From: Candidatus Aenigmatarchaeota archaeon
GTDB lineage: Archaea > Aenigmatarchaeota > Aenigmatarchaeia > QMZP01
Assembly (NCBI GenBank): GCA_043824495.1
Contig: JBDRSV010000024.1
Span: 91,056 to 155,055, forward strand
Reading direction: 5' to 3'
Length of the DNA: 64,000 nucleotides
Positions within the stretch are counted from its first letter, which is position 1; each line of letters starts with the position of its first letter. Positions 2,948 to 57,063 of this stretch are shown here, in pieces. The translations under genes were made by a program, and so were the position numbers. A model generated the notes under the pieces. That model did not search any database and was not told the origin of the DNA. It worked only from the letters and a program-made list of their open reading frames with translations.

Positions 2948-2964
2948 GTTCTCGCCGCGAATCC

Positions 2965-3004
2965 AAACAGGTATTCAAGAAGAGTCAATTCCTTCTGCCT
3001 GTTT
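2965..3004 (+). terminator. Hairpin terminator after the last gene of block I1
   Basis: AAACAGG (2965-2971) pairs with CCTGTTT (2998-3004), with an inner AGAAG/CTTCT pairing, followed by TTTTTAATTT. Confidence 0.55.
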
Positions 3005-3009
3005 TTAAT

Positions 3010-3030
3010 TTGTCTAATTAAAGGGATATA
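3010..3030 (-). repeat. Junction motif copy a (reverse complement TATATCCCTTTAATTAGACAA)
   Basis: Read directly from the sequence. GC-rich block on the left, AT-rich r-protein operon on the right. Confidence 0.9.
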
Positions 3031-3110
3031 GAAAGAAAAAATTAGAAATGTTCAGACATATAAACCTTATAAACTATAATGCTCAATAATTGGTATAATT
3101 CGAAAGGAAA

Positions 3111-3458
3111 ATGACATATATGAAAGCTAAGACAGATATTGGGGTTGGTTTGAAGCCACCTGAGCATAAATGTGAAGAAGAAAACTGTGCATGGCACGGG
3201 AAATTGCCTGTCAGAGGCAGAGTGTTTAGAGGTAGAGTTAGGGCCGCTAAATCTCAGAAAACAGCTATAATCGACTGGGGATTCCATAGATTCGTGCCTA
3301 AATACGAGAGATATGAGAGAAGAAAATCAAGAGTGACTGTTCATAATCCTGGCTGTATGAATGCTAAAGAAGGGGATAATGTTGTAATAGCAGAATGCAG
3401 ACCAATTTCAAAGACAAAGCACTTTGTAATTGTTGGTGTGCAAAAGGAAGGAAAATAA
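3111..3458 (+). CDS. rps17: 30S ribosomal protein S17
   Basis: KCEEENCAWHGKLPVRGRVFRGRV...TVHNPGCMNAKEGDNVVIAECRPISKTK is archaeal S17-like. Operon context. Confidence 0.9.
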   Translation: MTYMKAKTDIGVGLKPPEHKCEEENCAWHGKLPVRGRVFRGRVRAAKSQKTAIIDWGFHRFVPKYERYERRKSRVTVHNPGCMNAKEGDNVVIAECRPISKTKHFVIVGVQKEGK

Positions 3459-3459
3459 T

Positions 3460-3858
3460 ATGAAAGCGATATCAGCCAATATGACAAGGTGTTTGCCTGT
3501 GGGAGCAAGAATTAATTGTGTAGATAATTCAGGAGCAAAAATAATTAGAATAATTTCTGTAAGAGGATTTAAAGGTATACGAAGAACAATTCCTTCAACT
3601 GGTATTGCTGGTTTATTCCAGTGTAAAGTACTCAAAGGAAATGAGAAAGTTCGACATCTGGTTCATAAAGCTGTTATTGTAAGACAAACAAAAGAATTCA
3701 GAAGAGCAGACGGAACAAGAGTGTCATTCGAAGATAATGCAGCTGTATTAGTGGATGACAAAGGGGATCCAAAGGGTAATAGCATCAAGGGTCCTATTGC
3801 AAGGGAAGTTGTTGAGAGATTCCCAACAATTGGTAAGATTGCAAGCACAGTAGTTTAA
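3460..3858 (+). CDS. rpl14: 50S ribosomal protein L14
   Basis: INCVDNSGAKIIRIISV... is L14-like. Start at ATG 3460 just after the S17 stop. Confidence 0.9.
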   Translation: MKAISANMTRCLPVGARINCVDNSGAKIIRIISVRGFKGIRRTIPSTGIAGLFQCKVLKGNEKVRHLVHKAVIVRQTKEFRRADGTRVSFEDNAAVLVDDKGDPKGNSIKGPIAREVVERFPTIGKIASTVV

Positions 3859-4211
3859 TGGTGACTGACATGACAGATAACATAGATTTCAGTGAATTCC
3901 AAAAAGTTAATATAAGAATAGGAACAATTGAAGCAGCTGAGCCTGTTGAGAACACAGAAAAGCTGTTGAGGCTTCAAATAAGTTTAGGCGAAGAGAAGAG
4001 ACAAATTGTTTCTAGTATAGCAAAGGATTTCACACCTGATCAACTCATTGGTAAGCAAATACCAATACTTACCAACCTGGAGCCAAAAAGTTTCAGAGGA
4101 ATTGAAAGTCAGGGTATGATCTTACTGGTCGTAGAGGAACAAGATGGTTCAGAAAAGCTCACATTAATAACGCCTGAAAATAAAGTTCCTACAGGATCTA
4201 CAGTCAGGTAA
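3858..4211 (+). CDS. tRNA-binding domain protein (Trbp111/CsaA/MetRS-C-like)
   Basis: FQKVNIRIGTIEAAEP...KLLRLQISLGEEKRQIVSSI...NLEPKSFRGIESQGMILL matches the OB-fold tRNA-binding domain pattern. Confidence 0.7.
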   Translation: MVTDMTDNIDFSEFQKVNIRIGTIEAAEPVENTEKLLRLQISLGEEKRQIVSSIAKDFTPDQLIGKQIPILTNLEPKSFRGIESQGMILLVVEEQDGSEKLTLITPENKVPTGSTVR

Positions 4212-4216
4212 GAGTA

Positions 4217-4561
4217 ATGTCAAAAAAGAGAACAGTTGCAATATTGGTGGGGATATTAATGTTGTTATTGGTATTCCTGGTCGTACTACCGCTATCATTC
4301 GACTCTTCATTGGGAGCTGACTCATTACCTGATTCAGCTTTTTATGAAATTGAATTAGCAGGTGAGAACATAGCATGTGGTATATCACTTGATAGAAAAG
4401 CATGTTTGCTTGAACTTGCTAATGAAAGAGACCAAGAAGTGGAAGAGTTAAATATAAAACAAAGAAGATTATTCGATGAAGATGAAAAGCAACAGTATGA
4501 ATTGCTCATAATTAAAACTGAAAACGCAGCTTCGAGATTAAGAATCGAGGCACTAAAATAG
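4217..4561 (+). CDS. Hypothetical membrane-anchored protein
   Basis: N-terminal TM helix (VAILVGILMLLLVFLVVLPL) with a charged, coiled-coil-like C-terminus. Confidence 0.5.
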   Translation: MSKKRTVAILVGILMLLLVFLVVLPLSFDSSLGADSLPDSAFYEIELAGENIACGISLDRKACLLELANERDQEVEELNIKQRRLFDEDEKQQYELLIIKTENAASRLRIEALK

Positions 4562-4569
4562 GAGATCAA

Positions 4570-15240: not shown

Positions 15241-15264
15241 TATATCCCTCTAATTAGACAATAT
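15241..15264 (+). repeat. Junction motif copy b (TATATCCCTCTAATTAGACAATAT)
   Basis: Read directly from the sequence. AT-rich on the left, GC-richer block I2 on the right. Confidence 0.9.
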
Positions 15265-15267
15265 AAA

Positions 15268-15298
15268 ACAATCAGGTGCCGAGTGCACACCTAATTGT
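15268..15298 (-). terminator. Imperfect hairpin downstream of the last gene of block I2
   Basis: ACAATCAGGTG (15268-15278) pairs with CACCTAATTGT (15288-15298) with one mismatch. On the gene strand it is followed by TTTATATT. Confidence 0.5.
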
Positions 15299-15315
15299 CC
15301 TTGCCAATCCTCTTC

Positions 15316-16422
15316 TCATCTCAGCTTCAAAAACGCTATATGAGGTGCAGGCAGCCACTTGACTAACGATTCAGTCCAAGAGAAAGACCATTTCAGCTTC
15401 TTCTTCATCTCGTGAACCTTCATACATTTCACCGAGACTAGATTCCAGTTCAGGATGCCGAAAGCTGTGCCCAAGAGACCACCGACAAGCATAACGAAGC
15501 CCTGTCCTACAAGATCCATTCCGGCGGAGGAAACGAGAAATTTGTAAGCGAGAAATCCGCCCAAGACTCCGTCAACTGCACACAACACTCTCTGGAAACA
15601 GTGAACCATCTTGATGATGTTCCAGATAAACTGACCGATAAATGTGAGGACCACCGAGATGCACACCAAGACAACGAAAATGACGGTCAGTGCAGTGAGA
15701 ATTGGGTACCAGACAGAAAGTAGAAGCAAACTGAAGAGAATGTATCCCATCGCGTTGAGATACCCGAGTTTTATTTCTCGGCGGTTCTTCTCCTCAAGGA
15801 AATACCTCCTTCTTAACACACCGATGTCGTATTTTTGGTCCGTGTGTCTGCTTATTCCGAGAGCCTCCCCAATACTCTTATAGTTGTACAAAACGTCTTC
15901 CCCGCTAGCGTCTTTCTTATCGACCATCATGAAAGGATAGAAGAACCTTCCGCGATCACGACTTCCAACAAAAGCGAGGAAAGAAAGAACGCCGGAAAAG
16001 ATCACAACACAGGCACCAGAGAGCGCCAACAGAAGAATGCTGCTGAGAGCGAGTTGAAGGATGTTCAGTGTTTCAGCATCTGCGAAAAGACCGGAAAATA
16101 TGTGATGTGCTGGCCACAAGCCGAGCACAAGACTCGGAAAAAGGAACGGGTGTGGCTTCGAGCATAACCAGTCCTTGGCTTTTCCGTAGTTGTCTCTGAT
16201 ATAAAACGGCCAAGTTCCGATATCATCCAACATCTCTCCGAGCATCACTTGGATCGCTTTGGCCACCTCACGGAGGTCGTAACCAAAATAACCAGCTGCT
16301 CCGCCGGCCAGGAAAGCAGCAACCCACATGTACAACTTGTCCGGCATCAGCCACATGGCAGTTGCACAGAACACGATGCCTCCAATGAAGCATCCGATTC
16401 CGATCTTCATCCAATCTTTCAT
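15316..16422 (-). CDS. Hypothetical polytopic membrane protein
   Basis: 368 aa with multiple hydrophobic helices. No family recognised. Confidence 0.6.
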   Translation of the reverse strand: MKDWMKIGIGCFIGGIVFCATAMWLMPDKLYMWVAAFLAGGAAGYFGYDLREVAKAIQVMLGEMLDDIGTWPFYIRDNYGKAKDWLCSKPHPFLFPSLVLGLWPAHHIFSGLFADAETLNILQLALSSILLLALSGACVVIFSGVLSFLAFVGSRDRGRFFYPFMMVDKKDASGEDVLYNYKSIGEALGISRHTDQKYDIGVLRRRYFLEEKNRREIKLGYLNAMGYILFSLLLLSVWYPILTALTVIFVVLVCISVVLTFIGQFIWNIIKMVHCFQRVLCAVDGVLGGFLAYKFLVSSAGMDLVGQGFVMLVGGLLGTAFGILNWNLVSVKCMKVHEMKKKLKWSFSWTESLVKWLPAPHIAFLKLR

Positions 16423-16489
16423 GGCGAAAATCTCCTTCTCGTTGTATTTCTTTGTTTATAGTTATCGTCCTAGAATTAATTCAAAACAA

Positions 16490-17041
16490 TCATATCTGCA
16501 AAGGTTCAAGCAGATACATCAGACTTCGGTCTCGTAATTCTGTCCTCTTATAAGGAGGGAGATCTATGAGACAAAGACTGGAAATACTCACGTGCATGGT
16601 TTGATACTTGGTTTCGTCTGCTTGGTACATTCCCGTAAAGATTATATTATTCAGGACAAACCCGGAAACTACTGTCCAGATCCAGAATGCCATCCATCCA
16701 TCGTACAAGAAGACGCTGGCAATCGCTGAAATGATTGCACCCACTGCGAGAACACCTACCTCAAAGAGAAGCATCGTAAAGATATCTCCCACGGGGTCGT
16801 TTTTGTCCTCTTCCCACCAATCCTCCATGACGAGTTCGTGGATAATCATGTCAATGAGATTCTGCCTGTTCTGCATTTTCTCGTGGTAGGCTATGAAACG
16901 AGTTGGTTGACGAATGTTGTGCCAGATGATCAATCCAATTGGCACCCAGATGACTGCTGTAGTGACAAGCAGCCAGAGAACTACTCTAGTTTCCATGTCC
17001 CCTCCAGGATTGATTGTTAGAAAAAATACTAGTATAATCAC
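16490..17041 (-). CDS. Hypothetical membrane protein
   Basis: 183 aa with about 4 TM helices and a GTG start at 17039-17041. Confidence 0.5.
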   Translation of the reverse strand: MIILVFFLTINPGGDMETRVVLWLLVTTAVIWVPIGLIIWHNIRQPTRFIAYHEKMQNRQNLIDMIIHELVMEDWWEEDKNDPVGDIFTMLLFEVGVLAVGAIISAIASVFLYDGWMAFWIWTVVSGFVLNNIIFTGMYQADETKYQTMHVSISSLCLIDLPPYKRTELRDRSLMYLLEPLQI

Positions 17042-17221
17042 TCTCGTTAATTGACATTTCTGTCTTTCGTTGTCGTAGAGTATTGATTCCTAAATTACAG
17101 ATGATGACTTTACCTCGAACAAGAATCTTGTGCCAGGTGCTAAAAGTTGTCAGCGATGATAAATGTGGAACATGATGCATAGAATTTAACCTAAAATTTT
17201 ATAAACCTATACAAAACCTTT

Positions 17222-17244
17222 TTATACCTCTTAATTGACAATAT
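17222..17244 (+). repeat. Junction motif copy c, divergent (TTATACCTCTTAATTGACAATAT)
   Basis: 18 of 22 positions match copy b in my ungapped alignment. Lies 5 nt upstream of ATG 17250. Confidence 0.65.
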
Positions 17245-17249
17245 ATAGT

Positions 17250-17639
17250 ATGAAGAAAAAAGCAAAGAGGACCACAAAGAAAACAGTGAAAAAACCAGTC
17301 AAGAAAATAAAAATAGAAAAGAGAGTAACACCAAAACCAAAAAAAGAAGAGAAAATTAAATGTCCTTATTGTAAGAGTTCTAGAGTGGTTTGGAGAGGAT
17401 ATAGATACAACGAAAAGACTGACAAGCACTTAAGATTATGTAACAACTGTAAGAGAAAGTTCACAAAAAGAGACGAGTTCTTCCGTATGAGATTCGGTGA
17501 AGAAGAGATAAAAAGAGCTGTGGAATTATACAAGAAAGGTTATTCTTCTGCAGAAGTAGTTCAGAACCTGAAAAGAAATCATGGAATAAAGGTTTCAAGA
17601 TGGACTGTGATCTGTTGGCATAAGAGATACACTAAGTAA
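17250..17639 (+). CDS. Zinc-ribbon plus HTH protein, IS1 InsA-like / transposase N-terminal-domain-like, without a catalytic domain
   Basis: Lys-rich N-terminus, CPYCKS...LCNNCKRKF (CxxC...CxxC), then GYSSAEVVQNLKRNHGIKVSRWTVICWHKRY (HTH-like). AT-rich backbone composition. Confidence 0.6.
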   Translation: MKKKAKRTTKKTVKKPVKKIKIEKRVTPKPKKEEKIKCPYCKSSRVVWRGYRYNEKTDKHLRLCNNCKRKFTKRDEFFRMRFGEEEIKRAVELYKKGYSSAEVVQNLKRNHGIKVSRWTVICWHKRYTK

Positions 17640-17659: not shown

Positions 17660-17681
17660 TATATCCCTTTAAATGGACAAT
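17660..17681 (+). repeat. Junction motif copy d (TATATCCCTTTAAATGGACAAT)
   Basis: Read directly from the sequence. A T-run lies upstream and GC-rich block I3 lies downstream. Confidence 0.9.
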
Positions 17682-17686
17682 GCAAA

Positions 17687-17723
17687 GGGAGAGGTGCAGT
17701 ATTCCACATCTGCACACTCTCCC
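17687..17723 (-). terminator. Imperfect hairpin downstream of the T9SS-domain gene
   Basis: GGGAGAGGTGCAG (17687-17699) pairs with CTGCACACTCTCCC (17710-17723), with mismatches. Confidence 0.5.
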
Positions 17724-17754
17724 ACCACATCACCTTTTCAGGCTTTGCAGATTT

Positions 17755-19629
17755 TTACTTCAGAAGCGTCATCTTTTTGCTTTCCGTCAGGCTGGCCGTT
17801 TGCAACCGATAGAAGTACATACCGGACGCGACGGCCTTACCGTAGCGGTCGGTTCCGTCCCAGCTAACCTGATGTGTTCCTTCGGGCTGGGACCCGTTGA
17901 CGAGAGTGGCAACGTTGCGGCCGAGGATATCAAAGACCTCTAGCTTTACGTCTCCTCCCTGAGTCAACTGATAGGAAATCACGGTTCCGGCGTTGAAGGG
18001 GTTCGGGTAGTTCTGGTTCAAGCTGAATGATGTAGGAACGGCTCCTGTTGTCTTGTACGCGATGTTCAGCGTACCTAATGGAATCCACCCAGCCGGAACT
18101 GTCCGGCTGTTGTTGATCTCGTCAGCTATCGTTTTGGCCAACTCGTGATCGCCGAATGGATCGTCGATCAAGTTGTCGCAGTATGTTACCGCCTGTGACA
18201 CAGTCGCGCCGTCATCGCTAATCACAGCGGTTTGTGCCAGTTTGCCGCTAGCGACATTGAGTAGCAAAGCCATGAGTTGCTGTCTGGCTCGATCAATCAT
18301 GTCAACGCTGCCCTTGAGGTTCAGCAACGTCTTCGCGACTTCGAGCTTGTCTTCACAAAGATCCGACACGGGTGGATCGTACACGACGACCTCGTTCACT
18401 GCGTTCGAGTTGAAGTGGCCCGCGATGAGGTCGAGATAGCTACACAGAGTTGAAGCATCGATTTGCGCGCGGCCATTCCCACCAGTAGCGACGCCGACGT
18501 TGTGTTTCCAGAAGCCGATTGTTCGTTGTTCTCCAGCGTCTGACGGGCATCCCAATTCAAAGTCGATTTGGGCTGTGCCTTCACAATCGAGATCGACGGA
18601 CTGTTCGCTCGGAAATGCCGTATACCCGAGGGGGCCAACAAATGATACCATGTAGCTGGCCTCACCCGGGAGGTTCTCGAAATCGTAGTAACCGGCTTCA
18701 TCAGTCACAGCCGATTCTACAAGTACACCGGTGGCATCGAAGACATCAATCGTGATACCAAGAACAGAGCAGTCAGCACTCAGTGTGCCCTCAATTGCGG
18801 CGAAGCATTCTTCCTCTCCACCTCCGCATGCACACGTTCCATCTTCCACCTCAATGGCGGTGATGGTGTTGTCGTAGGCGTCCTTTGACCAGACGACGGT
18901 CAACGGCGCGAAGTTGATGACGTCGCATTCGAGATCCTCATCCCGACCACCGATCGTCGCGAAGTCACTGAGATACACGCCCGTTGTCTTGTCAATGCGA
19001 ACGATGTTGCCCAGACCATCGCGCCCGATGTAAAGGGTGTTCCCCGTCCCAACAATAACACCACTTATTCGATCCAGTGTATTGCCGGCCGCGTCGGTCG
19101 GATACAACGTTCCCAGATAGGCTCCCGAGCCCGCATCGAAGTGGTCAATGCCCGTTGATACATCATCGGAAACCCAGACACTGTTATCCGTCGCATCAAA
19201 GCCAATGCCGTCGATGAAACAGAAGCCCGGTGTTACCACAGAAAACTGGAAAGTGGCTACGCCGGTGGTGGGATCGATGAGATACACGTTCGCCGGACAT
19301 TCGTTGTCACTGCCTCCCCAGATCATGTTGCGCGTATTGTCCCATGCAATAGCGCCGATCGAAACTGGTGTGCCATCCGGTTTGAAAATGGAAACGAAGC
19401 CGAGATCGGTGCCGAATTTGTCTATCGAGTAGAGAGTTGGGTCGAAAGAGTTGGTGTAGAAAATCACACCATCACATCCAACTGCAACACCGATACCGAC
19501 ACCAGACGAGCTTGGAACAGGAACTGTGACGTTCGTGATGACATCACCGGGAGCTGCCATTGACGTAGCGGTGATAGCGGTGAAGAGGCAGAACACAACA
19601 AGCGCAGTGAAAGCTGTGAGACGCTTCAT
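17755..19629 (-). CDS. Secreted beta-propeller/CarboxypepD_reg-like protein with T9SS (Por) C-terminal sorting domain
   Basis: Signal peptide MKRLTAFTALVVFCLFTAITATSMA. The C-terminal NYPNPFNAGTVISYQL...VFDILGRNVATLV...GMYFYRLQT...KKMTLLK is the classic T9SS CTD pattern. GC-rich. Confidence 0.85.
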   Translation of the reverse strand: MKRLTAFTALVVFCLFTAITATSMAAPGDVITNVTVPVPSSSGVGIGVAVGCDGVIFYTNSFDPTLYSIDKFGTDLGFVSIFKPDGTPVSIGAIAWDNTRNMIWGGSDNECPANVYLIDPTTGVATFQFSVVTPGFCFIDGIGFDATDNSVWVSDDVSTGIDHFDAGSGAYLGTLYPTDAAGNTLDRISGVIVGTGNTLYIGRDGLGNIVRIDKTTGVYLSDFATIGGRDEDLECDVINFAPLTVVWSKDAYDNTITAIEVEDGTCACGGGEEECFAAIEGTLSADCSVLGITIDVFDATGVLVESAVTDEAGYYDFENLPGEASYMVSFVGPLGYTAFPSEQSVDLDCEGTAQIDFELGCPSDAGEQRTIGFWKHNVGVATGGNGRAQIDASTLCSYLDLIAGHFNSNAVNEVVVYDPPVSDLCEDKLEVAKTLLNLKGSVDMIDRARQQLMALLLNVASGKLAQTAVISDDGATVSQAVTYCDNLIDDPFGDHELAKTIADEINNSRTVPAGWIPLGTLNIAYKTTGAVPTSFSLNQNYPNPFNAGTVISYQLTQGGDVKLEVFDILGRNVATLVNGSQPEGTHQVSWDGTDRYGKAVASGMYFYRLQTASLTESKKMTLLK

Positions 19630-20175
19630 GGATTTTTATTCCTTAGGTTGTGAGGGAAATATGACCCTCCGGGTTTGTTTTTCGATTAGTTTCTGATTGT
19701 TTGTCGTTTACCACGTTTCCAAGTTAAGGTCCGCGAATCGCTATTTTCATTGGCATCCTCTCTTTGGGTTAATGTTGTCCGCACAAATTGCGGGATTAAA
19801 AGAAGGAAAGACACAAAAGATAGAGTATGTCTTATGTAGACTGAGAGTAAAATCATTCGAAGAATAAAGCTAATACTATTAAAACAAACATGCATGTTTG
19901 ATGTGTTTCTTTTCATGTTTTTTGTGTTAGCCAATGTACCGTTTCTATGGTTAATTGGATTGATTGAGTTGCAATCAATACAAATTTAAATGATGTTCGA
20001 ATGAGTAGCATGATTTAAATTGTATACAAAAATTGACGTTGATTCATCGTCGTTTTTTTGTGTTTTGGTATTTTTTTTGATTCTAGCTTGTCGCTTTTGT
20101 CAAGTCTTTAACTCAAGTATATAGCTTACAGGTATTTAAATGTTTTCTAACACATTTTTTTTAATTTTCTTTCTT

Positions 20176-20197
20176 TTATCCCTTTAAATAGACATAT
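20176..20197 (+). repeat. Junction motif copy e (TTATCCCTTTAAATAGACATAT)
   Basis: Read directly from the sequence. A T-run lies upstream and GC-rich block I4 lies downstream. Confidence 0.85.
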
Positions 20198-20206
20198 AAA
20201 AAGGCA

Positions 20207-20259
20207 AACGGGCGAAGATTTGGAGCCAAACTCTTCTTGATGTCTCACCTCCGCCCGTT
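20207..20259 (-). terminator. Compound hairpin next to motif copy e
   Basis: AACGGGCG (20207-20214) pairs with CGCCCGTT (20252-20259), with an inner GAAGATTTGG/CCAAACTCTTC stem. On the minus strand it is followed by TGCCTTTTTATAT. Confidence 0.4.
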
Positions 20260-21168
20260 AAATGCCGTTGTCCGGCCTATCAATTTACCCGCCGGTTAGG
20301 TGAGCACATGTGCTCGTGTCCCAGAGGCGCATGTTTTCATGCCCTCCTTTGCCGGGTTCTTACGCGAACGTGCTGCTTGACCGAGATAATGTAGCTGCCA
20401 GATTCCCCACAACCTTGTTATTGGTGGAACCGCGACAGCGGTCGGTCCAGTCCGTATGCATCGTAGCCTCACTTGGTGAAGGACTGCGAATCAAGAGACG
20501 GGGATTCAGAAGAATCCCCGTCTCACGAGTTGACGGTTGGTACGAGATATATCAAAGGAAGTCTTTATGCCATTGGGTGCATTCCGAAACCTTTAGCCTC
20601 GTCCGTCTCCGAGGGATCCTATCAAAGGTTTCATAAAGGAAATTTCATGGACCTCGTTACGATAGGATCGGAGTGGCGTAAAGCCACGGCCAGAACCTCG
20701 AGGTCCCCCAGGATAAGATCACCGTTTGAATATGAGTCAGCGGTGAACGTAAGGGTGCTGGCGATTCTTCTTCGCATTCAAACCCTCCAGGGAACACTTC
20801 GTAATTTGTGTTGTCAGCGGCTGTTTACGAATCGGCGGTGATCGTTTCCACCACGGTACATGTCGGCGTGGTGACAAACGATGAAGAAGCGACTTCAAAA
20901 CGCGCGCGGCCATTGCTCGGCGGCGGCGAATGAGCCCAGGCATTGACGGCGGTCGCGGCGGTATTCATCCAGGAAGCGACCACTGGTGACCCGCGAAGGG
21001 TCGGTAATCGGTTCATAGAGCAAGCTCCATTTCTTCCGATAGGAAAATTCCAATCCACTTTACAAACTCTCGCCTAAACAGAAAGTATTGTCACATAACT
21101 TTCCGTCGCAAAAGAGAATGTGAAGAGGAAACAATTTCGTACACCTCGTCAAGAGATCGTCTCCATTT

Positions 21169-21534
21169 TCACCCTACATGGGCTAGGCGAGAGGATAGAC
21201 CAGTTGCTGATAGAGATGTAGAGGGAACCGTTTTCATCCGAAGATCTCTCCCGTCCCTCAGGGAGTAAGTTGCTCGTCCACCAGGTTCCCATACCAAGGG
21301 AGCTGGCAACTCTGCCATTCTCTCTATCCGACTCTCTGTTGTCATCGCCACTACGGCAACAACTCTTAGCCTATCCGGCGTAGGATTATGAGAGTGTAGA
21401 GCGAATTCCTCGTTCCATGTTTGTTCTGTATCGCTGCCTGTTATGATATCCAATCCTGAAAACGGGATTGGGTCAGCGGTATAAACAATACAGGAACCAT
21501 ATATGAGGTAGCAGAGTGTCATGATTCCCAGCAT
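21169..21534 (-). CDS. Possible small secreted protein
   Basis: AAGGAG lies 5 nt upstream of the ATG, with a hydrophobic N-terminus MLGIMTLCYLIYGSCIVYTA. It is the only ORF in block I4 with a good RBS. Confidence 0.4.
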   Translation of the reverse strand: MLGIMTLCYLIYGSCIVYTADPIPFSGLDIITGSDTEQTWNEEFALHSHNPTPDRLRVVAVVAMTTESRIERMAELPAPLVWEPGGRATYSLRDGRDLRMKTVPSTSLSATGLSSRLAHVG

Positions 21535-23161
21535 GACAACTCCTTACAAGGGCACATGGTTATATGGTAAATGCTCTCTCCGTCAACAAATCGTGCCCTC
21601 TAAGACATGTTTAGGAGAGAAAGGCGACAACTCATGAAGTGTTCTTCAGGTGGACCCGTCATCACTGTTATTGCGTTGACGGCCTTCTCCTTGACCCGGA
21701 CTTAGACGTGTGGCTTTCGGTGTTTTCGCGGCGCGTTTCTGCTGTTTTGGACTACGCTTCTTGTTGCTCGGAAGCCCGTCTCGGGCACCACCGTGACACG
21801 TCATGAAAGACCTCGTTTGTGAGGAGTTCAGTTCAAGCTTGTGCTGGAACTGTTTGGAACGAGGAATTGTTACTCTTTACGGCGAGCGATTGTGTGTCAT
21901 CGTAACTCCTTGACAATGGTTTCCACAAGCTCCAAAATAAAAAAGAGCTGTTGTTTTCAAATTCAGTTGGGAATCTCCTAGCCCGCCCCCAGAACTGACT
22001 AGAGGAGATCCCCAACTTTTGTACAGCGCACCCCGTGCATTGTTTTCAGGGTGGAGGGGCCCGGCGGTCAACTGAGCCCCTCACTGGACGAATCGGTCAC
22101 AGATAACATGTTACGCATTACCGACTCGAAATCTATGCCACGGCAGTAGATGGAAGTGGTCGCATCTACCGCCGGGCTTCACGACGTTGTGCATTTTGTC
22201 GCCTTCAGCCTTACACAACGCCGTTATTTCCCCACCCACAGGGAATTTAATATCGCGGGGCCTCACTCAGGAGACCCCGCTTCCGTTGGGTTTACTACCG
22301 AATTGTTCGGTAGCGTTCTTCCACGACAGACATACGCACATGCGCACGTCTTCATTTCTTTGAGGACCTACTCATCTCCGATTTGAGTAGGTCCTCGGCT
22401 CCCCACAACCCCCCGATCAGCACCGGGAATTTTTTTGAGGGGAAATCTGAGCAGATATCTCAGACTCCCCTCCCGTCAGGTCTACCGACCAGCACTTCCG
22501 GTTGGACGCCGGAAATTCTTTATTAGAAGGGGTTTCCCCTCTCCAAGAAACCCCTTCCTCTTCGGCGTAGCGCGTCTCACGCGCTTTAGTGCATCGATCC
22601 CCACCGATCAGGTAAAACCCTTGGATGGTTCTCTCCCCGAACCCCCACTGAAATATTTTGGAACCCCTCATAGATCCCCGTAATCTCCGAGAGGTTCCGA
22701 CAGCAGCACCATACAAATGGGACTACCGTGACAATCAAAAATACCGGAATCCACCGCGTCAGAAGAGGATTCCGGTATTCTACATCGCTGGTTGTGTTGA
22801 GAGCTTACCCCTTACTGGTCTTAACGAGTATGTTACGTCGGACTTCCTTTCACCAAATATACGGGTCACTACAGAATACCCGATCGATCCGCTTTGTTGT
22901 CTTAATCTCACCAGCGGATAGTGACGCGGTTACAGCCAGCGATTTCGCCTTTATACAACAGGCGTCTCCAAACCAAAATGGAAATTGGAGTTGTTGCTTC
23001 CACACTTCCGGATTTCCCCCTCCGGTAAACTCTAAGGTACTGATAGGTGACCGCTCGTGTTTCTTGTGTTCGCAATTGCCGATTGCATCAAGCTCTTCGT
23101 AGATCTAGATCTGGAAGTAATTAGCAAACGATCACAATAAACAGACAACTGGGAGAAGTCC

Positions 23162-23788
23162 ATTTCTACCAGTACCTGGATTTTCTAACCCTCGGGAGGT
23201 GTGTACAAGCCTAAGCAGAGTTTGTCCTGTTGAATTGGCCCCGAGGGTAAGTGGCCTTCCGGAAGAGAATTGGTGAGGTCCTGTAACAGAACTCTATCTC
23301 ATTCCGGGGTAAAGCTCAAGGCACAGCCAGAAGGAGACGTATTACCTTGAGAAGTTGGTCTCCCGAGTGAAGAAATTCGAGATGTCCCATCGATGAAGGA
23401 CATCTCTTCTCCACTCGGGCTCATTCGTCAGCCTGGAAGGAGAAGTGCAAGAGTTTTCGCGCAATTACTCTCTCTCCTCCCGGGAAATTTATGACCTCCT
23501 GGTCCGAAACTTGTGCCGCGGTAAACCAGAAGGCGTAACTGCTAGGCTATGTGACGGCCACAGCAGTAGGGATCGAATCCAATACACGAAAGACAGCTAA
23601 GACTAACTCTGTCTCGTGTGGTTTACGAGTAAAATTCAGAAATCGATAGTCTTCGGCCTCTTCGAGGGAAACTGCTTAAGCGCTTAATTGCAGCGCGTTA
23701 TGTTTCCTGGTAAGTGACCTGTTCTCTAGGATGTACCGAAGGCTAACTTAGTTAGTCTCGGGAAATTCGCGTGTGATTGGTAGAAATG
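23162..23788. ncRNA. Candidate ~630-nt structured RNA (family unknown, strand undetermined)
   Basis: CATTTCTACCA (23162-23172) is complementary to TGGTAGAAATG (23778-23788). Internal helices include CCCTCGGG/CCCGAGGG and GAGATGTCC/GGACATCTC (23379-23406). No ORF. Confidence 0.35.
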
Positions 23789-34749: not shown

Positions 34750-34830
34750 GCGTGTAGTTATCATTCACACCCCGCCTGGATTCAATTCCAGGCGGGGTTG
34801 ATCATGAAATAAAGAGAAGGGGAGTGTACC

Positions 34831-35973: not shown

Positions 35974-36222
35974 GTGCGTCCTATCGACCAGACGATAATT
36001 CTGATCGGACGCGATCCGGAATGTGACGTAATACTCGATAATCGCGCCGTCGACTTCTTCCATGCTCACATTGATTTCGGCGAGAATTTTGTAGTAATTG
36101 ACAACGTGTCACTCAACGGCACGTTTGTCAACGGAGAAAAGGTCGAGAAAGCGGTTCTCCGTCCTGGTGATGTGATCACAATAGCCAGGTATGAGATTCA
36201 CATCCGGTCCCTCCGGAAGTAG
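35974..36222 (+). CDS. FHA-domain protein (start uncertain; domain extends upstream of the annotated GTG)
   Basis: IILIGRDPECDVILDNRAVDFFHAHI...NVSLNGTFVNGEKV...PGDVITIARYEIHI is FHA-like. The frame is open back to 35899. Confidence 0.65.
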   Translation: MRPIDQTIILIGRDPECDVILDNRAVDFFHAHIDFGENFVVIDNVSLNGTFVNGEKVEKAVLRPGDVITIARYEIHIRSLRK

Positions 36223-36250
36223 ACGACGCGATGGTAGTCTTGTTCCAATT

Positions 36251-36279
36251 CCGTACAGGTGTTTACAAAATCTGTGCGG
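36251..36279 (+). terminator. Imperfect hairpin after the last gene of block I5
   Basis: CCGTACAG (36251-36258) pairs with CTGTGCGG (36272-36279) with one mismatch, followed by GATTTGTATT. Confidence 0.45.
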
Positions 36280-36286
36280 GATTTGT

Positions 36287-36308
36287 ATTGTCTAATTAAA
36301 GGGATATA
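36287..36308 (-). repeat. Junction motif copy f (reverse complement TATATCCCTTTAATTAGACAAT)
   Basis: Read directly from the sequence. GC-rich block on the left, AT-rich DNA on the right. Confidence 0.9.
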
Positions 36309-55014: not shown

Positions 55015-55055
55015 ACGGAGTAATAATAAGAAATAATTTAAATAAGTTTTCCATG

Positions 55056-55337
55056 CTAAACAGAACCTATAATGATTAGAGCTACTACGATAACCAAAGC
55101 TAGCATAAGCATAAATATCTGTTTCCATGAACTGAAAAAGAATTTTGCCATGAAGAATAATATTATCAGTATTAGTACACCGGCTAGAATAGTTCCTTCT
55201 ATACCTATGTTACTAACAGGGTTGAGAGAACCCATTAATTCTAGAAATAGACCAAAGATACCACTCAGTGTACTCATAGTGTTCCCTATAACAAGTTGTA
55301 TCATTTCAAGTATCACAATCAATGGAGCATCTGCCAT
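55056..55337 (-). CDS. Small membrane protein
   Basis: Three hydrophobic helices. Confidence 0.45.
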   Translation of the reverse strand: MADAPLIVILEMIQLVIGNTMSTLSGIFGLFLELMGSLNPVSNIGIEGTILAGVLILIILFFMAKFFFSSWKQIFMLMLALVIVVALIIIGSV

Positions 55338-55362
55338 TGATTAATAATTAGTCTGAGTGCAT

Positions 55363-56547
55363 TTATTTCTTTGTGAGGATCTCAACTATGTCTCCATCCT
55401 TGAGCTCGTACTCTGCACCCACTTTCTTACGATCTGTCTTCATTCCACCTATGAATTTATCTGCTAAATCTGTGTGGATTTTTCCAGCGAACTGTTTCAA
55501 ATGAGTTCCTCTAGGAACTAAATGTACGTCTGGTAGAACATTTCCATCTTTATCTGTCATTTTACCTATGTTTGTAACTGGATAAACAGCTATCATATCG
55601 AGTGTTTCAAAAACAGTATGATTCAATATATTTTGTATACCAGTAGATTCATATTTAACAAGAATTTTTTCTTTTATGAACTCTAAAGCTGAGATTTGTT
55701 TTGGTGTTAGTCTATGCGCAACAACTATCTCAAAGTCTTTATCTCCTGGATTATATTTGATGAAACCATGCTCATTAGCTTCTCTTAAAGCTAGTTCACA
55801 CTCGGCTGTACATGGAATTATATGTTTATGTTTATCATGTAAAAGTTTGAAATTCTTCTGACCATCCTCTGTATCTATTTTATTTCCTGCTATCACAATA
55901 GGTTTGTTTCTTTTTCTTAGCTCACTTACTAAATGTATTAAATGATCTTCTTTTGTGTGCACTTCTATGTCTAATTTCTTAACTTCGTCTCTAACAGTTT
56001 CATAATCTAATTGTAAACCTGACAATTGTTCGTAAATTAAATCTTCTAGTTTTGCATCAGTTGTTTCAGCTTTTTTAGAGAGTTGTTTCCAGTTGTTTTT
56101 TAATATTTGAAACATCCAATAATCTATTTCTCTAGGTAAGAAATGGATATCTTCTTCAGGATCATGCGAACCTGCTTTTACAGGATTACCTTCCCCGTCT
56201 GTTCCTCCAGATAGATCAACTACATGAATTAGTCCTGATGCTGTCATAATGTCTGTTAGAAATTGATTACCTAAACCCTTTCCCTTATGTGCATCCGGAA
56301 CAAGTCCTGCTATGTCTATAAGTCTGACTGGTATGTATCTAATTCCGTCAATACATTTAGAATTCTTAGGCTTGCAAGTAACTCCTTGTGTCTTACAAGG
56401 ACATTCTGCTGTTACGTAAGCAACACCTTGGTTAGGTTTGATTGTTGTGAATATTCTGTTGCTTATTTCTATGTCTATCAGAGTAGCTGCTTTGAAGAAT
56501 GTTGATTTACCTGTGTTTGATTTACCTACAACCCCTATTTGGATCAT
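55363..56547 (-). CDS. Obg-like GTPase/ATPase (YchF/Drg-type) with C-terminal TGS-like domain
   Basis: GVVGKSNTGKSTFF (G1), DIAGLV (G3), AGNKID (G4) and a C-terminal ...LKDGDIVEI. Confidence 0.8.
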   Translation of the reverse strand: MIQIGVVGKSNTGKSTFFKAATLIDIEISNRIFTTIKPNQGVAYVTAECPCKTQGVTCKPKNSKCIDGIRYIPVRLIDIAGLVPDAHKGKGLGNQFLTDIMTASGLIHVVDLSGGTDGEGNPVKAGSHDPEEDIHFLPREIDYWMFQILKNNWKQLSKKAETTDAKLEDLIYEQLSGLQLDYETVRDEVKKLDIEVHTKEDHLIHLVSELRKRNKPIVIAGNKIDTEDGQKNFKLLHDKHKHIIPCTAECELALREANEHGFIKYNPGDKDFEIVVAHRLTPKQISALEFIKEKILVKYESTGIQNILNHTVFETLDMIAVYPVTNIGKMTDKDGNVLPDVHLVPRGTHLKQFAGKIHTDLADKFIGGMKTDRKKVGAEYELKDGDIVEILTKK

Positions 56548-56582
56548 ATGATATATTTATTTAGTAAATTTAAAAACGATTC

Positions 56583-56951
56583 ATGGGCTTCAATTCCGGT
56601 AACCAGTTCAGAATTGCAGGTATACTTTTGATATTGGAAACTATAGCTCTTCTATATTTCTCTATCGTTCCGTATGCATCTATAGACACTGGGATAGAAG
56701 CATTGCGCCTCGGAGACTTCGAACACTTGATGGCTTATCTCATCTATGCTCTTTTAGCTGAGCGAGTATTAAGTCAGACAAAATTCAAGAAGCATAGAGT
56801 TATACTAGCATTCTTAATTGCAGCAGCTTTTGGTGGAATAAATGAGGTTATACAATCTTTCATTCCTTTGAGAGAAGCAGATATGATTGATTTAGCCTTT
56901 GATACTGTTGGTTCTGTCATCGGTAGCTTTTTGCTTGGTCTTAAGAAATGA
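56583..56951 (+). CDS. VanZ-like membrane protein
   Basis: GGINEVIQSFIPLREADMIDLAFDTVGSVIGS. Confidence 0.65.
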   Translation: MGFNSGNQFRIAGILLILETIALLYFSIVPYASIDTGIEALRLGDFEHLMAYLIYALLAERVLSQTKFKKHRVILAFLIAAAFGGINEVIQSFIPLREADMIDLAFDTVGSVIGSFLLGLKK

Positions 56952-56966
56952 TTTTTTATAACCTTC

Positions 56967-56990
56967 TATATCCCTTTAAATAGACAATAT
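56967..56990 (+). repeat. Junction motif copy g (TATATCCCTTTAAATAGACAATAT)
   Basis: Read directly from the sequence. VanZ stop plus a T-run on the left, GC-rich block I6 on the right. Confidence 0.9.
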
Positions 56991-56991
56991 A

Positions 56992-57032
56992 AAGGGGAAA
57001 GTGTGATTGGTGGTCACACTTTTTCTCCCCTT
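56992..57032 (-). terminator. Hairpin downstream of the last gene of block I6
   Basis: AAGGGGAAAGTGTGA (56992-57006) pairs with TCACACTTTTTCTCCCCTT (57014-57032), with bulges. Confidence 0.55.
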
Positions 57033-57063
57033 GTAGCACCCGGAGAAGCTGCTCGCGTTGCAG

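What the first reader, a model, noticed from the sequence alone, without database searches (positions are those of the whole stretch)
2948..57063. Each coding block ends exactly one hairpin past a stop codon, with its genes facing the motif tail-first
In all five coding blocks the motif lies downstream (3') of the block's last gene. The gaps are 62 nt (stop 2947 to motif 3010), 51 nt (15264 to 15316), 73 nt (17681 to 17755), 64 nt (36222 to 36287) and 73 nt (56990 to 57064). Each gap holds one imperfect GC hairpin (2965-3004, 15268-15298, 17687-17723, 36251-36279, 56992-57032). On the gene strand the hairpin runs into the T-rich start of the motif (TTTATATTGTCTA...). Random fragment joins would not repeatedly break just after a terminator or keep one gene polarity. 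With five blocks, identical relative polarity has roughly a 1 in 16 chance, so this is suggestive only. The opposite edges of the blocks share no motif that I could see, so the structure is one-ended.
Basis: seen in the sequence. Interest (0 to 1): 0.75.

Follow-up and report, generated by a model that had tools for sequence, protein, structure and literature searches.

The report
Transposon-end motif caps captured foreign operons
In this tiny symbiotic-type archaeon, whole foreign (at least partly bacterial) operons sit in the chromosome, each joined by its terminator end to one conserved 21-27-base site that resembles an IS6/IS26 transposon end, which suggests an undescribed, polar way of capturing genes across domains.

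Summary
The window is a low-GC Aenigmatarchaeota (DPANN) chromosome. About a third of it is high-GC inserts.

- **Motif.** Six strong copies of TTGTCYAWTTARAGGGATATA occur where about zero are expected. A seventh, degenerate copy also exists.
- **Position.** Each strong copy lies at one edge of a high-GC block, 6-14 nt after a GC hairpin. The block's genes point at it.
- **Other lineages.** The same hairpin/T-run/motif module recurs in at least 10 other uncultured archaeal lineages, sometimes as same-orientation arrays.
- **Real insertions.** Block A splits the canonical Rpp29-S17 ribosomal operon. One relative has an empty site there with no motif.
- **Whole units.** Blocks are complete transcription units with an intact first gene and all genes co-directional.
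- **Origin.** Block C1 encodes a Zixibacteria-like T9SS protein.

New finding: the motif matches the terminal repeat of an archaeal IS6-family element at 14 of 17 positions. A conserved host gene at 17250-17639 encodes only the Zn-ribbon+HTH DNA-binding module of IS6 transposases. Motif copies flank that gene.

Best reading: an IS6-derived site works as a polar capture or boundary site for foreign operons. The joining mechanism is inferred, not shown. RNA-mediated capture, attC-like recombination and a regulatory role remain open.

The parts
3010..3030 (+). Motif copy m1 (TTGTCTAATTAAAGGGATATA). It is the 3' boundary of block A and lies about 90 nt upstream of the S17 gene.
15241..15261 (-). 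Motif copy m2, the 3' boundary of block B.
17221..17247 (-). Degenerate motif copy m7. On the + strand it reads as the leaderless core promoter of the Zn-ribbon-HTH gene (TTTATACCTCTTAATTGACAATATATA, then gtATG). It is conserved in relative L013.
17250..17639 (+). Gene for a stand-alone Zn-ribbon + HTH protein. It equals the N-terminal DNA-binding module of archaeal IS6-family transposases and has no DDE domain. It is a conserved host gene between ArgRS and DUF87, and it is flanked by m7 and m3.
17660..17680 (-). Motif copy m3, the 3' boundary of block C1. This copy, directly after the Zn-ribbon-HTH stop codon, is conserved in relatives L013 and L016.
20175..20195 (-). Motif copy m4 (3 mismatches), the 3' boundary of the non-coding block C2.
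36288..36308 (+). Motif copy m5, the 3' boundary of block D.
56967..56987 (-). Motif copy m6, the 3' boundary of block E.
2972..3003 (+). Terminator-like hairpin of block A (AAACAGG...CCTGTTT), followed by a T-run.
15265..15301 (-). Terminator-like hairpin of block B.
17687..17723 (-). Terminator-like hairpin of block C1 (-31 kcal/mol region, z -5.2).
20207..20259 (-). Hairpin next to m4, at the end of block C2.
36247..36283 (+). Terminator-like hairpin of block D.
56992..57032 (-). Terminator-like hairpin of block E.
1..3009 (+). Block A, high GC. It encodes an M20-like peptidase, an M32 carboxypeptidase and a 163-aa protein. It starts about 930 nt left of the window. It is an insertion between Rpp29 and S17 of the ribosomal protein operon.
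15262..17150 (-). Block B, with two co-directional genes at 15316-16422 and 16490-17005. It is absent from relative L013.
17681..19800 (-). Block C1, with one gene at 17755-19629. The gene encodes a T9SS-sorting-domain protein whose nearest named relatives are from Zixibacteria.
20196..23780 (-). Block C2: high GC, ORF-poor, with no Rfam match. It is more structured on the minus strand.
27000..36287 (+). Block D, with nine co-directional genes (27378-36222) that have almost no Pfam matches. The last gene's protein resembles an FHA domain by eye only (no family search was run on it).
56988..59180 (-). Block E, with three co-directional genes (57064-59030).
26538..26999 (.). MITE-like element with 54-nt inverted ends (TTGTCAC...AAAGGGTTTATAAAG), at the left edge of block D. 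The ends look like an expanded version of the motif. The interior holds two ACGAAAGACA words.

Best explanation
The motif is a conserved protein-binding site descended from the terminal inverted repeat of an IS6/IS26-family insertion sequence. Its likely reader is the small Zn-ribbon+HTH protein encoded at 17250-17639. That protein is the N-terminal DNA-binding module of an IS6 transposase, kept as a single-copy host gene without the catalytic domain. The gene is itself flanked by two motif copies, and one of them forms its own promoter.

The high-GC blocks are complete foreign transcription units, at least one of them bacterial. Each is joined by its 3' end to the outer (TTGTC) tip of such a site. 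The hairpin would be the foreign operon's own intrinsic terminator. The junction falls 6-14 nt after the stem, at the end of the T-tract.

I propose that the site acts as a polar landing pad or cassette boundary. A transposase-type joining at the repeat tip would place foreign units next to a resident repeat. This resembles the end-targeted, cointegrate-forming reactions of IS26, with the catalytic transposase supplied in trans or since lost. Repeated joining would build same-orientation arrays such as 15241-20195 and L010.

**Shown:** the anatomy, the polarity, the insertion status of the blocks, and the resemblance to the IS6 end. Homology of the protein to IS6 transposases is also shown.
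**Inferred:** binding of the protein to the motif, the joining chemistry, and that the hairpins are native terminators of the donors.
For: **Motif and position**
- Six copies occur where 0 are expected, and each lies at a GC step.
- The invariant 20-nt core has a sharp edge after ATATA across 22 copies from at least 10 lineages of 37-62% GC.
- A hairpin ends 6-14 nt upstream of the core.

**Link to the IS6 family**
- The Zn-ribbon-HTH protein gives consistent sub-threshold IS6 and IS1 transposase N-terminal hits in five family members.
- A profile search finds stand-alone forms of 95-130 aa. It also finds many proteins of 266-315 aa that carry this module at the N-terminus.
- Seven of the ten larger hits scanned carry DDE_Tnp_IS240 (six full-length, one partial); three do not. 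Identity is 30-55% in tblastn, mostly 35-45%.
- The full-length element L022 has ends GGACACTGTTAAGTTAA and GGACATTGTTCAATTAA(AGCG). The motif segment ATTGTCTAATTAAAGGG matches the second at 14 of 17 positions. The best motif-HMM hit in L022-L024 falls exactly on that end. L025 shows a similar left end.
- The IS6 review gives cTGTt as the conserved repeat core and describes direct-repeat IS arrays (PMC7986276).

**Gene and motif are coupled**
- Motif copies lie next to the gene in five lineages: the window, L013, L016, L010 and L001.

**Landing-pad behaviour**
- The gene and m3 are conserved in relatives. The DNA beyond the motif tip is non-homologous in the window, L013 and L016. The far flank (DUF87) is conserved.

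**Blocks are insertions**
- The Rpp29-S17 spacer is empty and motif-free in L020. It is filled in the window and in L019, and the motif has opposite orientations in those two.

**Arrays**
- Same-orientation copies form arrays in the window, L010 and L019.

**Foreign origin**
- The C1 protein is closest to Zixibacteria T9SS proteins, at 45-62% identity.
Against: - No DDE transposase of the IS6 family is present in the window or in the relatives' loci.
- The motif lacks the GG tip of IS6 ends.
- No 8-bp target duplication was found.
- Copies are solo rather than paired inverted ends. Blocks A, D and E have no second copy.
- IS26-type reactions would leave full IS copies, and none are seen.
- By homology the foreign DNA lies outside the repeat tip. 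Yet in the Rpp29-S17 spacer the motif appears to have arrived with the insert.
- IS6 chemistry does not explain why the foreign partner always ends at a terminator, or why it begins upstream of an intact first gene.
- The repeat similarity rests on two elements and 17 positions of AT-rich sequence.
Confidence: 0.4

Rival explanations
1. RNA-mediated capture. Terminated foreign transcripts are reverse-transcribed and joined at the motif, for example by priming from a nick at the motif tip. Each insert would then run from about the transcript start to the terminator's U-tract.
For: - The junction lies 6-14 nt (mode 7-9) after the hairpin stem. By my own knowledge, that is where intrinsic termination releases RNA.
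- All ~18 genes of the five coding blocks are co-directional and point at the motif.
- Every block begins 50-260 nt upstream of an intact first gene, and no partial gene lies at either end.
- No second repeat or target duplication is needed.
- Conservation of the T-rich positions before TGTC is graded, which would fit a microhomology overlap.
- Reverse transcriptases, mostly of the DGR type, are common in DPANN archaea (PMC8632793).
- The ORF-free block C2 folds better on the strand that points at the motif: z -4.3 against -1.8.
Against: - No reverse transcriptase was found among the window ORFs that were scanned.
- Bacterial mRNA would have to be present inside the archaeal cell.
- No 5'-truncated copy was seen, although these are typical of target-primed retro-insertion.
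- Blocks B and C1 are flanked by motif copies.
- The 50-260-nt leaders could include donor promoters, which a transcript would not carry.
Confidence: 0.15
2. Integron-like cassettes. Gene(s), hairpin and motif form a mobile cassette whose 3' site plays the role of attC. A site-specific recombinase encoded elsewhere would move the cassettes.
For: - Cassette genes are co-oriented, with the recombination-site-like element at their 3' end.
- Same-orientation arrays occur: L010 has five copies about 1 kb apart, and the window and L019 also have arrays.
- The motif appears in either orientation in the Rpp29-S17 spacer and is absent from the empty site.
- The hairpin has a conserved structure but a variable sequence.
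- Integrons are known in Archaea (PMC9668308).
Against: - No integrase is found in the window or the loci.
- No R''/R' core (RYYYAAC...GTTRRRY) is present, and the conserved motif does not pair with sequence upstream of the hairpin.
- Cassettes are scattered and up to 9.3 kb with nine genes.
- No identical cassette was seen in two contexts.
- Bacterial genomes lack the motif, so how a cassette would acquire it is unexplained.
Confidence: 0.15
3. A host regulatory element. The motif would be a promoter, an insulator or a terminator-associated roadblock bound by the Zn-ribbon-HTH protein, spread like REP sequences. Foreign DNA would survive only where such a site shields the host from it, or where the site silences it by antisense transcription.
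For: - Read on the other strand, the motif has this archaeon's own core-promoter form: TTTATAT-CC with the start codon about 24 nt later.
- The predicted start falls at the junction.
- The Zn-ribbon-HTH gene's own promoter is such a copy, and it is conserved in L013.
- T- or A-runs lie on both sides of the motif.
- In L002 two copies face each other between convergent genes, inside a uniformly 58% GC contig.
- In L010 a motif follows a tRNA-like 3' end.
Against: - In the window, 6 of 6 strong copies abut foreign blocks. None follows any of the roughly 50 host genes.
- A 21-of-21 match across genomes of 37-62% GC is far beyond normal promoter conservation.
- Selection alone does not give a 6-14-nt spacing to the hairpin.
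- As a promoter it would drive only antisense, non-coding RNA.
Confidence: 0.15
4. An assembly or binning chimera. Bacterial and archaeal fragments would be falsely joined at a shared repeat.
For: - Sharp GC steps occur at the junctions.
- A bacterial-type T9SS gene sits in an archaeal contig.
- The Logan assembly breaks at 17094-17112.
Against: - Two assemblers give the same joins.
- The repeat is shorter than Logan's k-mer.
- Only one end of each block has the repeat.
- The same architecture appears in other samples and assemblies: L005, L010, L013, L016 and L019.
- Bacterial genomes do not carry the motif.
Confidence: 0.03

Closest known systems
IS6/IS26-family insertion sequences and their pseudo-compound or translocatable-unit arrays
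   Same: - The DNA-binding module of the adjacent protein is homologous to the N-terminus of IS6 transposases.
- The motif resembles an IS6-type terminal repeat, with the TGT core and AATTAAAG (PMC7986276).
- Foreign segments are separated by same-orientation repeats.
- Foreign DNA abuts the repeat tip exactly.
   Different: - There is no DDE domain and no full IS copy.
- Ends are solo rather than paired inverted ends.
- The tip is TT, not GG.
- There is no 8-bp duplication.
- The captured DNA is always a whole operon joined by its terminator end, which IS26 does not do.
Integron gene cassettes with attC sites, including archaeal integrons (Ghaly et al. 2022, PMC9668308)
   Same: - Co-oriented cassettes carry a structured element at the 3' end of the gene.
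- The hairpin has variable sequence next to a conserved core.
- Arrays occur.
- The system would be a platform for cross-domain gene recruitment.
   Different: - There is no IntI and no attC core sites.
- Loci are dispersed.
- Cassettes hold several genes and have their own leaders.
- The conserved part is a 21-nt non-palindromic, transposon-end-like sequence.
REP sequences and their RAYT domesticated transposases (from my own knowledge)
   Same: - A single-copy, host-conserved transposase derivative is flanked by copies of a short extragenic repeat.
- The repeat is dispersed just past the 3' ends of genes, next to hairpins.
   Different: - RAYTs keep their HUH catalytic domain, whereas this protein has only the DNA-binding part.
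- REPs are themselves palindromes. Here the hairpins are unrelated in sequence.
- REPs follow native genes, whereas these copies mark foreign blocks.
One-ended transposition (Tn3 family) and rolling-circle capture (IS91, ISCR, Helitrons) (from my own knowledge)
   Same: One conserved end and one variable end. A hairpin lies close to the conserved terminus (Helitron 3' ends). Neighbouring genes are captured.
   Different: - The captured DNA lies on the outer side of the repeat, not the inner side.
- There is no HUH or Tn3-type transposase.
- Hairpins differ in every copy.
- The variable ends are not random: they sit at operon starts.
Processed retrocopies made by target-primed reverse transcription (from my own knowledge)
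   Same: Inserts correspond to transcripts. The 3' end lies at the RNA 3' end and has a fixed polarity relative to the target. The far end is variable.
   Different: Inserts are polycistronic, up to 9.3 kb. No reverse transcriptase was found here. There are no 5' truncations and no poly(A). The RNA would be of foreign origin.

Membership tests
IS6/IS26-family insertion sequence | Transposase with a DDE_Tnp_IS240 catalytic domain | tested here: not met
   The 129-aa protein matches only positions 2-52 of the IS6 model and 1-81 of the IS1 model. tblastn with six full-length IS6 transposases aligns only residues 1-121 in the window and in relatives. No IS240 DDE domain is found in any window ORF scanned.
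IS6/IS26-family insertion sequence | Short (15-20 bp) inverted terminal repeats with GG tips and a cTGTt core (PMC7986276) | tested here: inconclusive
   The motif matches the right end of L022 at 14 of 17 positions and keeps the TGT core. The tip positions are TT, not GG. Copies are solo, except for a facing pair in L002.
IS6/IS26-family insertion sequence | 8-bp direct target duplication | tested here: not met
   Only block D shows an 8-mer (AGAGTTAA) at offset 0. That is not more than chance over eight cases.
IS6/IS26-family insertion sequence | Arrays of directly oriented copies separating foreign segments | tested here: met
   In the window, m2, m7, m3 and m4 are all on the minus strand. 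L010 has five copies on one strand. L019 has two.
Integron / attC cassette array | IntI tyrosine recombinase next to the array | tested here: not met
   The 52 window ORFs scanned give no integrase match. None is called in L010, L013, L016 or L019.
Integron / attC cassette array | attC with paired R''/L'' and L'/R' sites and a GTTRRRY core | tested here: not met
   No GTTRRRY lies at the junctions. The conserved motif has no complementary partner upstream of the hairpin. This was checked by eye only, not with an attC covariance model.
Integron / attC cassette array | Co-oriented cassettes with the site at the 3' end of the gene | tested here: met
   The adjacent gene is tail-first in 12 of 13 informative junctions.
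REP / RAYT system | HUH (Y1) transposase-like gene flanked by REPs | tested here: not met
   The flanked gene is an IS6-type Zn-ribbon+HTH module, not an HUH protein.
REP / RAYT system | The repeat itself is an imperfect palindrome | tested here: not met
   The conserved 20-nt core is not self-complementary. The hairpins beside it share no sequence.
Bacterial-type intrinsic terminator (the hairpins) | GC-rich stem-loop followed by a T-tract shortly after a stop codon | tested here: met
   Stems have 7-15 pairs. Five of six window copies have z of -3.0 to -5.2. A TTT run follows the stem. The hairpins lie 51-73 nt after stop codons. Termination activity itself was not tested.
Target-primed retro-insertion (processed retrocopy) | Reverse transcriptase encoded in the genome | not testable with these tools
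   No reverse transcriptase was found in the window ORFs that were scanned. The rest of the 171,815-bp contig and of the MAG could not be read.
Target-primed retro-insertion (processed retrocopy) | Insert ends at the RNA 3' end, with frequent 5' truncation | tested here: inconclusive
   The 3' ends fit, at 6-14 nt after the stem. No 5'-truncated insert was seen in five blocks.

The most novel reading that the evidence does not exclude
An archaeal system that captures whole foreign operons as copies of terminated transcripts. Each insert would run from about the transcript start to the terminator's U-tract. It would be joined, in one polarity, to an IS6-derived site that doubles as a host promoter. 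The system would work across the bacteria-archaea boundary. It would also show directly how 'gene plus 3' site' cassettes can arise, which is the unsolved origin problem of integron cassettes.
Probability: 0.12. Interest if true: 0.95.

Novelty: new variant of a known kind. Interest (0 to 1): 0.75.

Why it matters
DPANN archaea have tiny genomes, yet about a third of this 64-kb stretch is foreign. Even the core ribosomal protein operon is split by an insert.

A fixed, conserved junction site points to a dedicated, polar route for taking up whole operons across domains. The site is tied to a domesticated transposase DNA-binding domain and always faces the terminator end of an intact foreign transcription unit. 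Ordinary illegitimate recombination would not give this pattern.

If the site is a capture platform, it would be a new platform for cross-domain gene recruitment in Archaea, alongside the integrons already reported there. It would also make testable how genes acquire a 3' recombination site. In addition, it would give a practical sequence tag for finding recent horizontal transfers in uncultured archaea.

Tried and rejected
- **Known RNA families and tRNAs.** None were found in the window, in block C2, or in the variable regions of relatives. tRNAs were found only in L004 and L010.
- **Viral origin.** The motif and the Zn-ribbon-HTH family are absent from IMG/VR contigs.
- **Population variants with empty sites.** Exact-protein look-ups returned only the same organisation. 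One look-up failed because of a wrong start codon.
- **A second copy of the motif at the far ends of A, D and E.** A motif HMM found none.
- **Target-site duplications.** An exact k-mer search over eight inserts gave nothing beyond chance.
- **Shared sequence among the AT-rich left-end segments.** Only the ACGAAAGAC(A) word is shared.
- **Homology among the variable DNA next to the Zn-ribbon-HTH motif.** None was found between the window, L013 and L016. No CRISPR-like repeats are present.
- **C2 as decayed genes.** Stop-free segments look non-protein-like by eye. Three C2 ORFs have no Pfam hit.
- **Sigma-70 promoter and simple terminator scan.** It was uninformative. It caught one of the three junction hairpins in the scanned 1-20,000 region (block B), because its loop limit is 8 nt.
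- **Donor identification.** Plasmid searches for blocks A and D gave no close match.
- **Solved structures.** No meaningful match was found for the Zn-ribbon-HTH family.
- **dif/Xer sites, resolvase res sites and DNA uptake sequences.** I considered these from memory and dropped them. The motif has no matching second half-site, is not unique per genome, and is not spread over native genes.

Full report
**What the window is.** The backbone is about 33% GC. It carries an archaeal ribosomal protein operon (S17, L14, L24, S4e, L5, S14, S8 and so on), ArgRS, YchF and similar genes. NCBI names the exact proteins as 'MAG: Candidatus Aenigmatarchaeota archaeon', on a 171,815-bp contig. Six stretches of 44-58% GC interrupt the backbone:

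| Block | Coordinates |
|---|---|
| A | 1-3009 (starts left of the window) |
| B | 15262 to about 17150 |
| C1 | 17681 to about 19800 |
| C2 | 20196 to about 23780 |
| D | about 27000 to 36287 |
| E | 56988 to about 59180 |

Together these make up about a third of the window.

**Checking the observation.** The core motif TTGTCTAATTAAAGGGATATA, allowing up to 3 mismatches, occurs six times against 0.00 expected. The copies are at 3010(+), 15241(-), 17660(-), 20175(-), 36288(+) and 56967(-). A degenerate seventh copy lies at 17221-17247(-). Each strong copy sits exactly at a GC step. On the motif's own strand the high-GC DNA is always on the 5' side.

The 70 nt before each copy fold into a GC hairpin. 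Energies are -15 to -31 kcal/mol, and z-scores are -3.0 to -5.2 for five of six copies.

**Not an artefact.** A Logan assembly of run SRR26275509 gives two contigs that together reproduce every motif-side junction. One is 22.4 kb and ends near window 17112. The other is 48 kb and starts near 17094. The two contigs only overlap at 17094-17112, so the link across that point rests on the deposited MAG contig alone. The repeat is shorter than Logan's k of 31. Only one end of each block carries the repeat.

**The module elsewhere.** An exact degenerate scan of one genome for each of 185,579 species found five matches. Four are in uncultured archaea, two of them labelled Aenigmatarchaeota. One is in a Methylophilaceae bacterium, in a different context. 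By my own estimate, about two matches are expected by chance. The JGI metagenome scan found four more.

In nearly all of these a GC hairpin and a T-run precede the motif. Three loci stand out:
- **L005**, a 37% GC Aenigmatarchaeota genome, has a single 51% GC gene that ends in hairpin plus motif.
- **L002** has two copies facing each other 14 nt apart, each preceded by its own hairpin.
- **L010** has five same-strand copies about 1 kb apart.

Across 22 copies the 20-nt core TGTCTAnTTAAAGGGATATA is almost invariant. Conservation stops abruptly after ATATA. On the other side it fades through a T-rich stretch (TTTnnAT) into the hairpin. The stem ends 6-14 nt before TGTC in most copies, and most often 7-9 nt. 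The neighbouring gene is tail-first in 12 of 13 informative cases. The exception, L001, has no hairpin.

**The blocks are true insertions and whole units.** Upstream of the window, the Logan contig shows L29, SUI1 and Rpp29. Next come a low-GC methyltransferase on the minus strand, block A (M20-like peptidase, M32 peptidase, a 163-aa protein), the hairpin and the motif. Then come S17 and L14. In other Aenigmatarchaeota the Rpp29-S17 spacer varies:
- In L020 it is 130 nt with no motif.
- In L021 it is 500 nt with no motif.
- In L019 it is 2.1 kb. The motif lies in the opposite orientation, 10 nt after the Rpp29 stop, followed by a hairpin and three small minus-strand genes that point at it.

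So the motif is not an ancestral site in that spacer. It arrived there, with or before the cargo, in either orientation.

Relative L013 (about 68% nucleotide identity) has ArgRS directly followed by the Zn-ribbon-HTH gene. It lacks window 12953-17249, which holds three low-GC genes, m2 and block B.

The GC step at the far end of blocks A, B, C1, D and E lies 50-260 nt upstream of an intact first gene. There are no partial genes at either end. All of the roughly 18 genes in the five coding blocks are co-directional. Random break points would rarely give this. By my rough estimate, about one random break in ten falls in a suitable intergenic position, which gives about 1e-5 for five blocks.

The C1 protein carries T9SS sorting, FlgD-Ig and SdrD domains. 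Its best named relatives are Zixibacteria proteins, at 45-62% identity. At least this block is therefore bacterial in origin, and no close donor is on record.

**The key new lead.** The ORF at 17250-17639 lies between two motif copies. It encodes a Zn-ribbon plus HTH protein. Homologues of about 95 aa sit next to motif copies in L001, L010, L013 and L016. In L013 and L016 the gene is syntenic between ArgRS and DUF87, so it is a conserved host gene.

The links to the IS6 family are these:
- NCBIfam gives consistent sub-threshold matches to the N-terminus of IS6 and IS1 transposases in all five members tested.
- A profile search of 1.84 billion representative proteins finds 131 relatives at E up to 1e-10. 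Many are stand-alone proteins of 95-130 aa. Many others are proteins of 266-315 aa with the module at the N-terminus.
- Seven of the ten larger hits scanned carry DDE_Tnp_IS240, six full-length and one partial. Three carry no IS240 domain: a 208-aa protein, a 534-aa protein and a 460-aa polysaccharide-synthesis enzyme.
- tblastn identities to the window gene and its relatives are 30-55%, mostly 35-45%. No DDE remnant follows.
- One full-length element, L022-L024, has ends GGACACTGTTAAGTTAA and GGACATTGTTCAATTAA(AGCG). The motif segment ATTGTCTAATTAAAGGG matches the second at 14 of 17 positions. The best motif-HMM hit in each of the three contigs falls exactly on that end. A second element, L025, starts ATATTGTTCTCTAATCGGG.
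- The IS6 review gives GG tips and a cTGTt core as the family signature. It also describes arrays of directly repeated copies around foreign segments (PMC7986276).

The motif therefore looks like an IS6-type end without the GG tip. Its 'outer' side is the TTGTC side, where the foreign DNA sits. Its 'inner' side faces the Zn-ribbon-HTH gene in all five lineages.

**A second reading of the same sequence.** Host genes in the window commonly have TTTATAT(A/T)CC about 24 nt before the start codon, which implies leaderless mRNAs. Read on the other strand, the motif has the same form: tTATATCCCTTTAAATAGACAATATAAA. The predicted start falls within about 3 nt of the junction.

The Zn-ribbon-HTH gene's own promoter is such a copy: TTTATACCTCTTAATTGACAATATATA, then gtATG. 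It is conserved in L013. This fits a transposase-derived repressor bound to an end-derived operator. It also means each copy could fire antisense into its block.

**Landing-pad evidence.** At the Zn-ribbon-HTH locus the gene, the motif after its stop codon and the far flank (DUF87 and a 182-aa gene) are conserved in the window, L013 and L016. The DNA between the motif tip and DUF87 differs:
- 6.2 kb in the window (C1, m4, C2),
- 2.3 kb in L013,
- 2.5 kb in L016.

No similarity is detectable among the three. L013 has a hairpin 30 nt from the motif, and L016 has one directly beside it. A resident copy therefore collects different DNA at its tip in different lineages.

**Most likely mechanism.** I commit, at about 0.4, to this reading. 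The motif is an IS6-derived binding site for the Zn-ribbon-HTH protein. It serves as a polar boundary or landing pad at which foreign transcription units are joined by their terminator end. The joining would be a transposase-type reaction at the repeat tip, with the catalytic protein acting in trans or since lost.
- **Shown:** the anatomy, the polarity, the insertion status, and the resemblance of the repeat to an IS6 end. Homology of the protein to IS6 transposases is also shown.
- **Inferred:** binding of the protein to the motif, the joining chemistry, and that the hairpins are native terminators of the donors.
- **Weak points:**
  - There is no DDE gene.
  - There is no GG tip.
  - There is no 8-bp duplication.
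  - Copies are solo.
  - IS6 chemistry gives no reason for operon-precise cargo.

**Rivals.**
1. *RNA-mediated capture of terminated transcripts (0.15).* This explains the 7-9-nt spacing, the co-directional genes, the operon-precise ends and the single conserved end better than any DNA model. It lacks a reverse transcriptase here and a source of bacterial RNA inside the cell.
2. *attC-like cassettes moved by an unseen recombinase (0.15).* This fits the arrays and the two orientations of the motif. No integrase and no attC core are found.
3. *A host promoter, roadblock or REP-like element, with survival of shielded or silenced inserts (0.15).* This fits the promoter form. It does not fit the 6-of-6 association with foreign DNA, nor the exact spacing.
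4. *Assembly chimera (0.03).* This is largely refuted above.

**Comparison with known systems.** The feature works most like IS26-type arrays and integron cassette arrays. It echoes REP/RAYT in having a domesticated transposase gene flanked by its repeats. It fails defining features of each: no DDE domain, GG tips or duplication; no IntI or attC; no HUH protein or palindromic repeat. I found nothing like it in four full-text literature searches. I file it as a new variant of transposon-derived capture systems. There is a minority chance that it is something categorically new.

**Unexplained.**
- The word ACGAAAGAC(A) occurs five times against 0.5 expected. All five lie at the far ends of blocks B, C2, D (twice) and E, usually inside small inverted repeats. 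The word is almost absent from 174 kb of related loci.
- Block C2 and the variable DNA of L013 and L016 have almost no ORFs and no Rfam match. C2 folds better on the strand that points at the motif: z -4.3 against -1.8.

Noticed in passing
window 17062-17070(-), 23586-23594(+), 26630-26638(+), 26671-26679(+), 59094-59102(+): The word ACGAAAGAC(A) occurs 5 times against 0.5 expected. Every copy lies near the far (5') end of a high-GC block, mostly inside short inverted repeats (for example CACGAAAGAC...GACTTTCGTG). It is nearly absent from 174 kb of related loci. It may be a second, genome-specific end signature or an operator.
   Followed up: partly
window 20196-23780; L013 10324-12613; L016 10343-12830: All three lineages have 2.3-3.6 kb of almost ORF-free DNA between the Zn-ribbon-HTH gene and DUF87. 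The three stretches are mutually non-homologous and have no Rfam match. Window 23150-23750 folds with z -4.3 on the minus strand against -1.8 on the plus strand. This may be a large structured RNA or decayed captured DNA.
   Followed up: partly
window 26538-26999: A 462-nt MITE-like element has 54-nt inverted ends (TTGTCACTATCTGATAG...AAAGGGTTTATAAAG, 74% complementary) at the left edge of block D. The ends look like an expanded version of the motif and contain promoter-like TATTTAAACCC.
   Followed up: partly
window 17094-17112: The independent Logan assembly breaks into two contigs exactly at the far end of block B. This suggests a branch in the read graph, possibly alleles with and without the insert.
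   Followed up: no
L018 3381-8270; L019 3910-6000; L020 9871-10000; L021 9500-10000: The Rpp29-S17 spacer of the ribosomal protein operon is a recurrent insertion hot spot in Aenigmatarchaeota. Its length is 130 nt, 500 nt, 2.1 kb and 4.9 kb in four lineages.
   Followed up: yes
window 47035-49560(-): The myo-inositol-1-phosphate synthase gene carries an intein with a LAGLIDADG endonuclease domain. Relative L013 has the gene without the roughly 1.4-kb insert.
   Followed up: no
window 36309-47035: This low-GC stretch is absent from relative L013. It holds a PD-(D/E)XK nuclease (36936-37589), a type IIG restriction-modification enzyme (39330-42056) and an IS4/IS5-type DDE transposase (44028-45038). 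It looks like a defence or mobile island adjoining block D.
   Followed up: no
window, upstream of many host genes (e.g. 10249, 36936, 50858, 15171, 17250): Host genes show TTTATAT(A/T)CC about 24 nt before the start codon and no Shine-Dalgarno sequence, which implies leaderless mRNAs. Genes in the high-GC blocks have strong GGAGG-type ribosome-binding sites.
   Followed up: partly
window 29328-29378 and 30239-30289: A 51-nt repeat (84% identity) holds a GGGGATCCC...GGGATCCCC hairpin followed by CTGACAATAAAC. It lies in two intergenic spacers inside block D, and a similar TTGACAATAAAC precedes the block's first gene.
   Followed up: no
L010 about 5510-5590 (minus strand), just before motif copy 2: A tRNA-like 3' end (GGGGTTCAAGTCCCCTCCCCCGCA followed by TTTTTT) directly precedes a motif copy, but ARAGORN calls no tRNA there. 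Two tRNA genes lie in another cassette of the same array.
   Followed up: no
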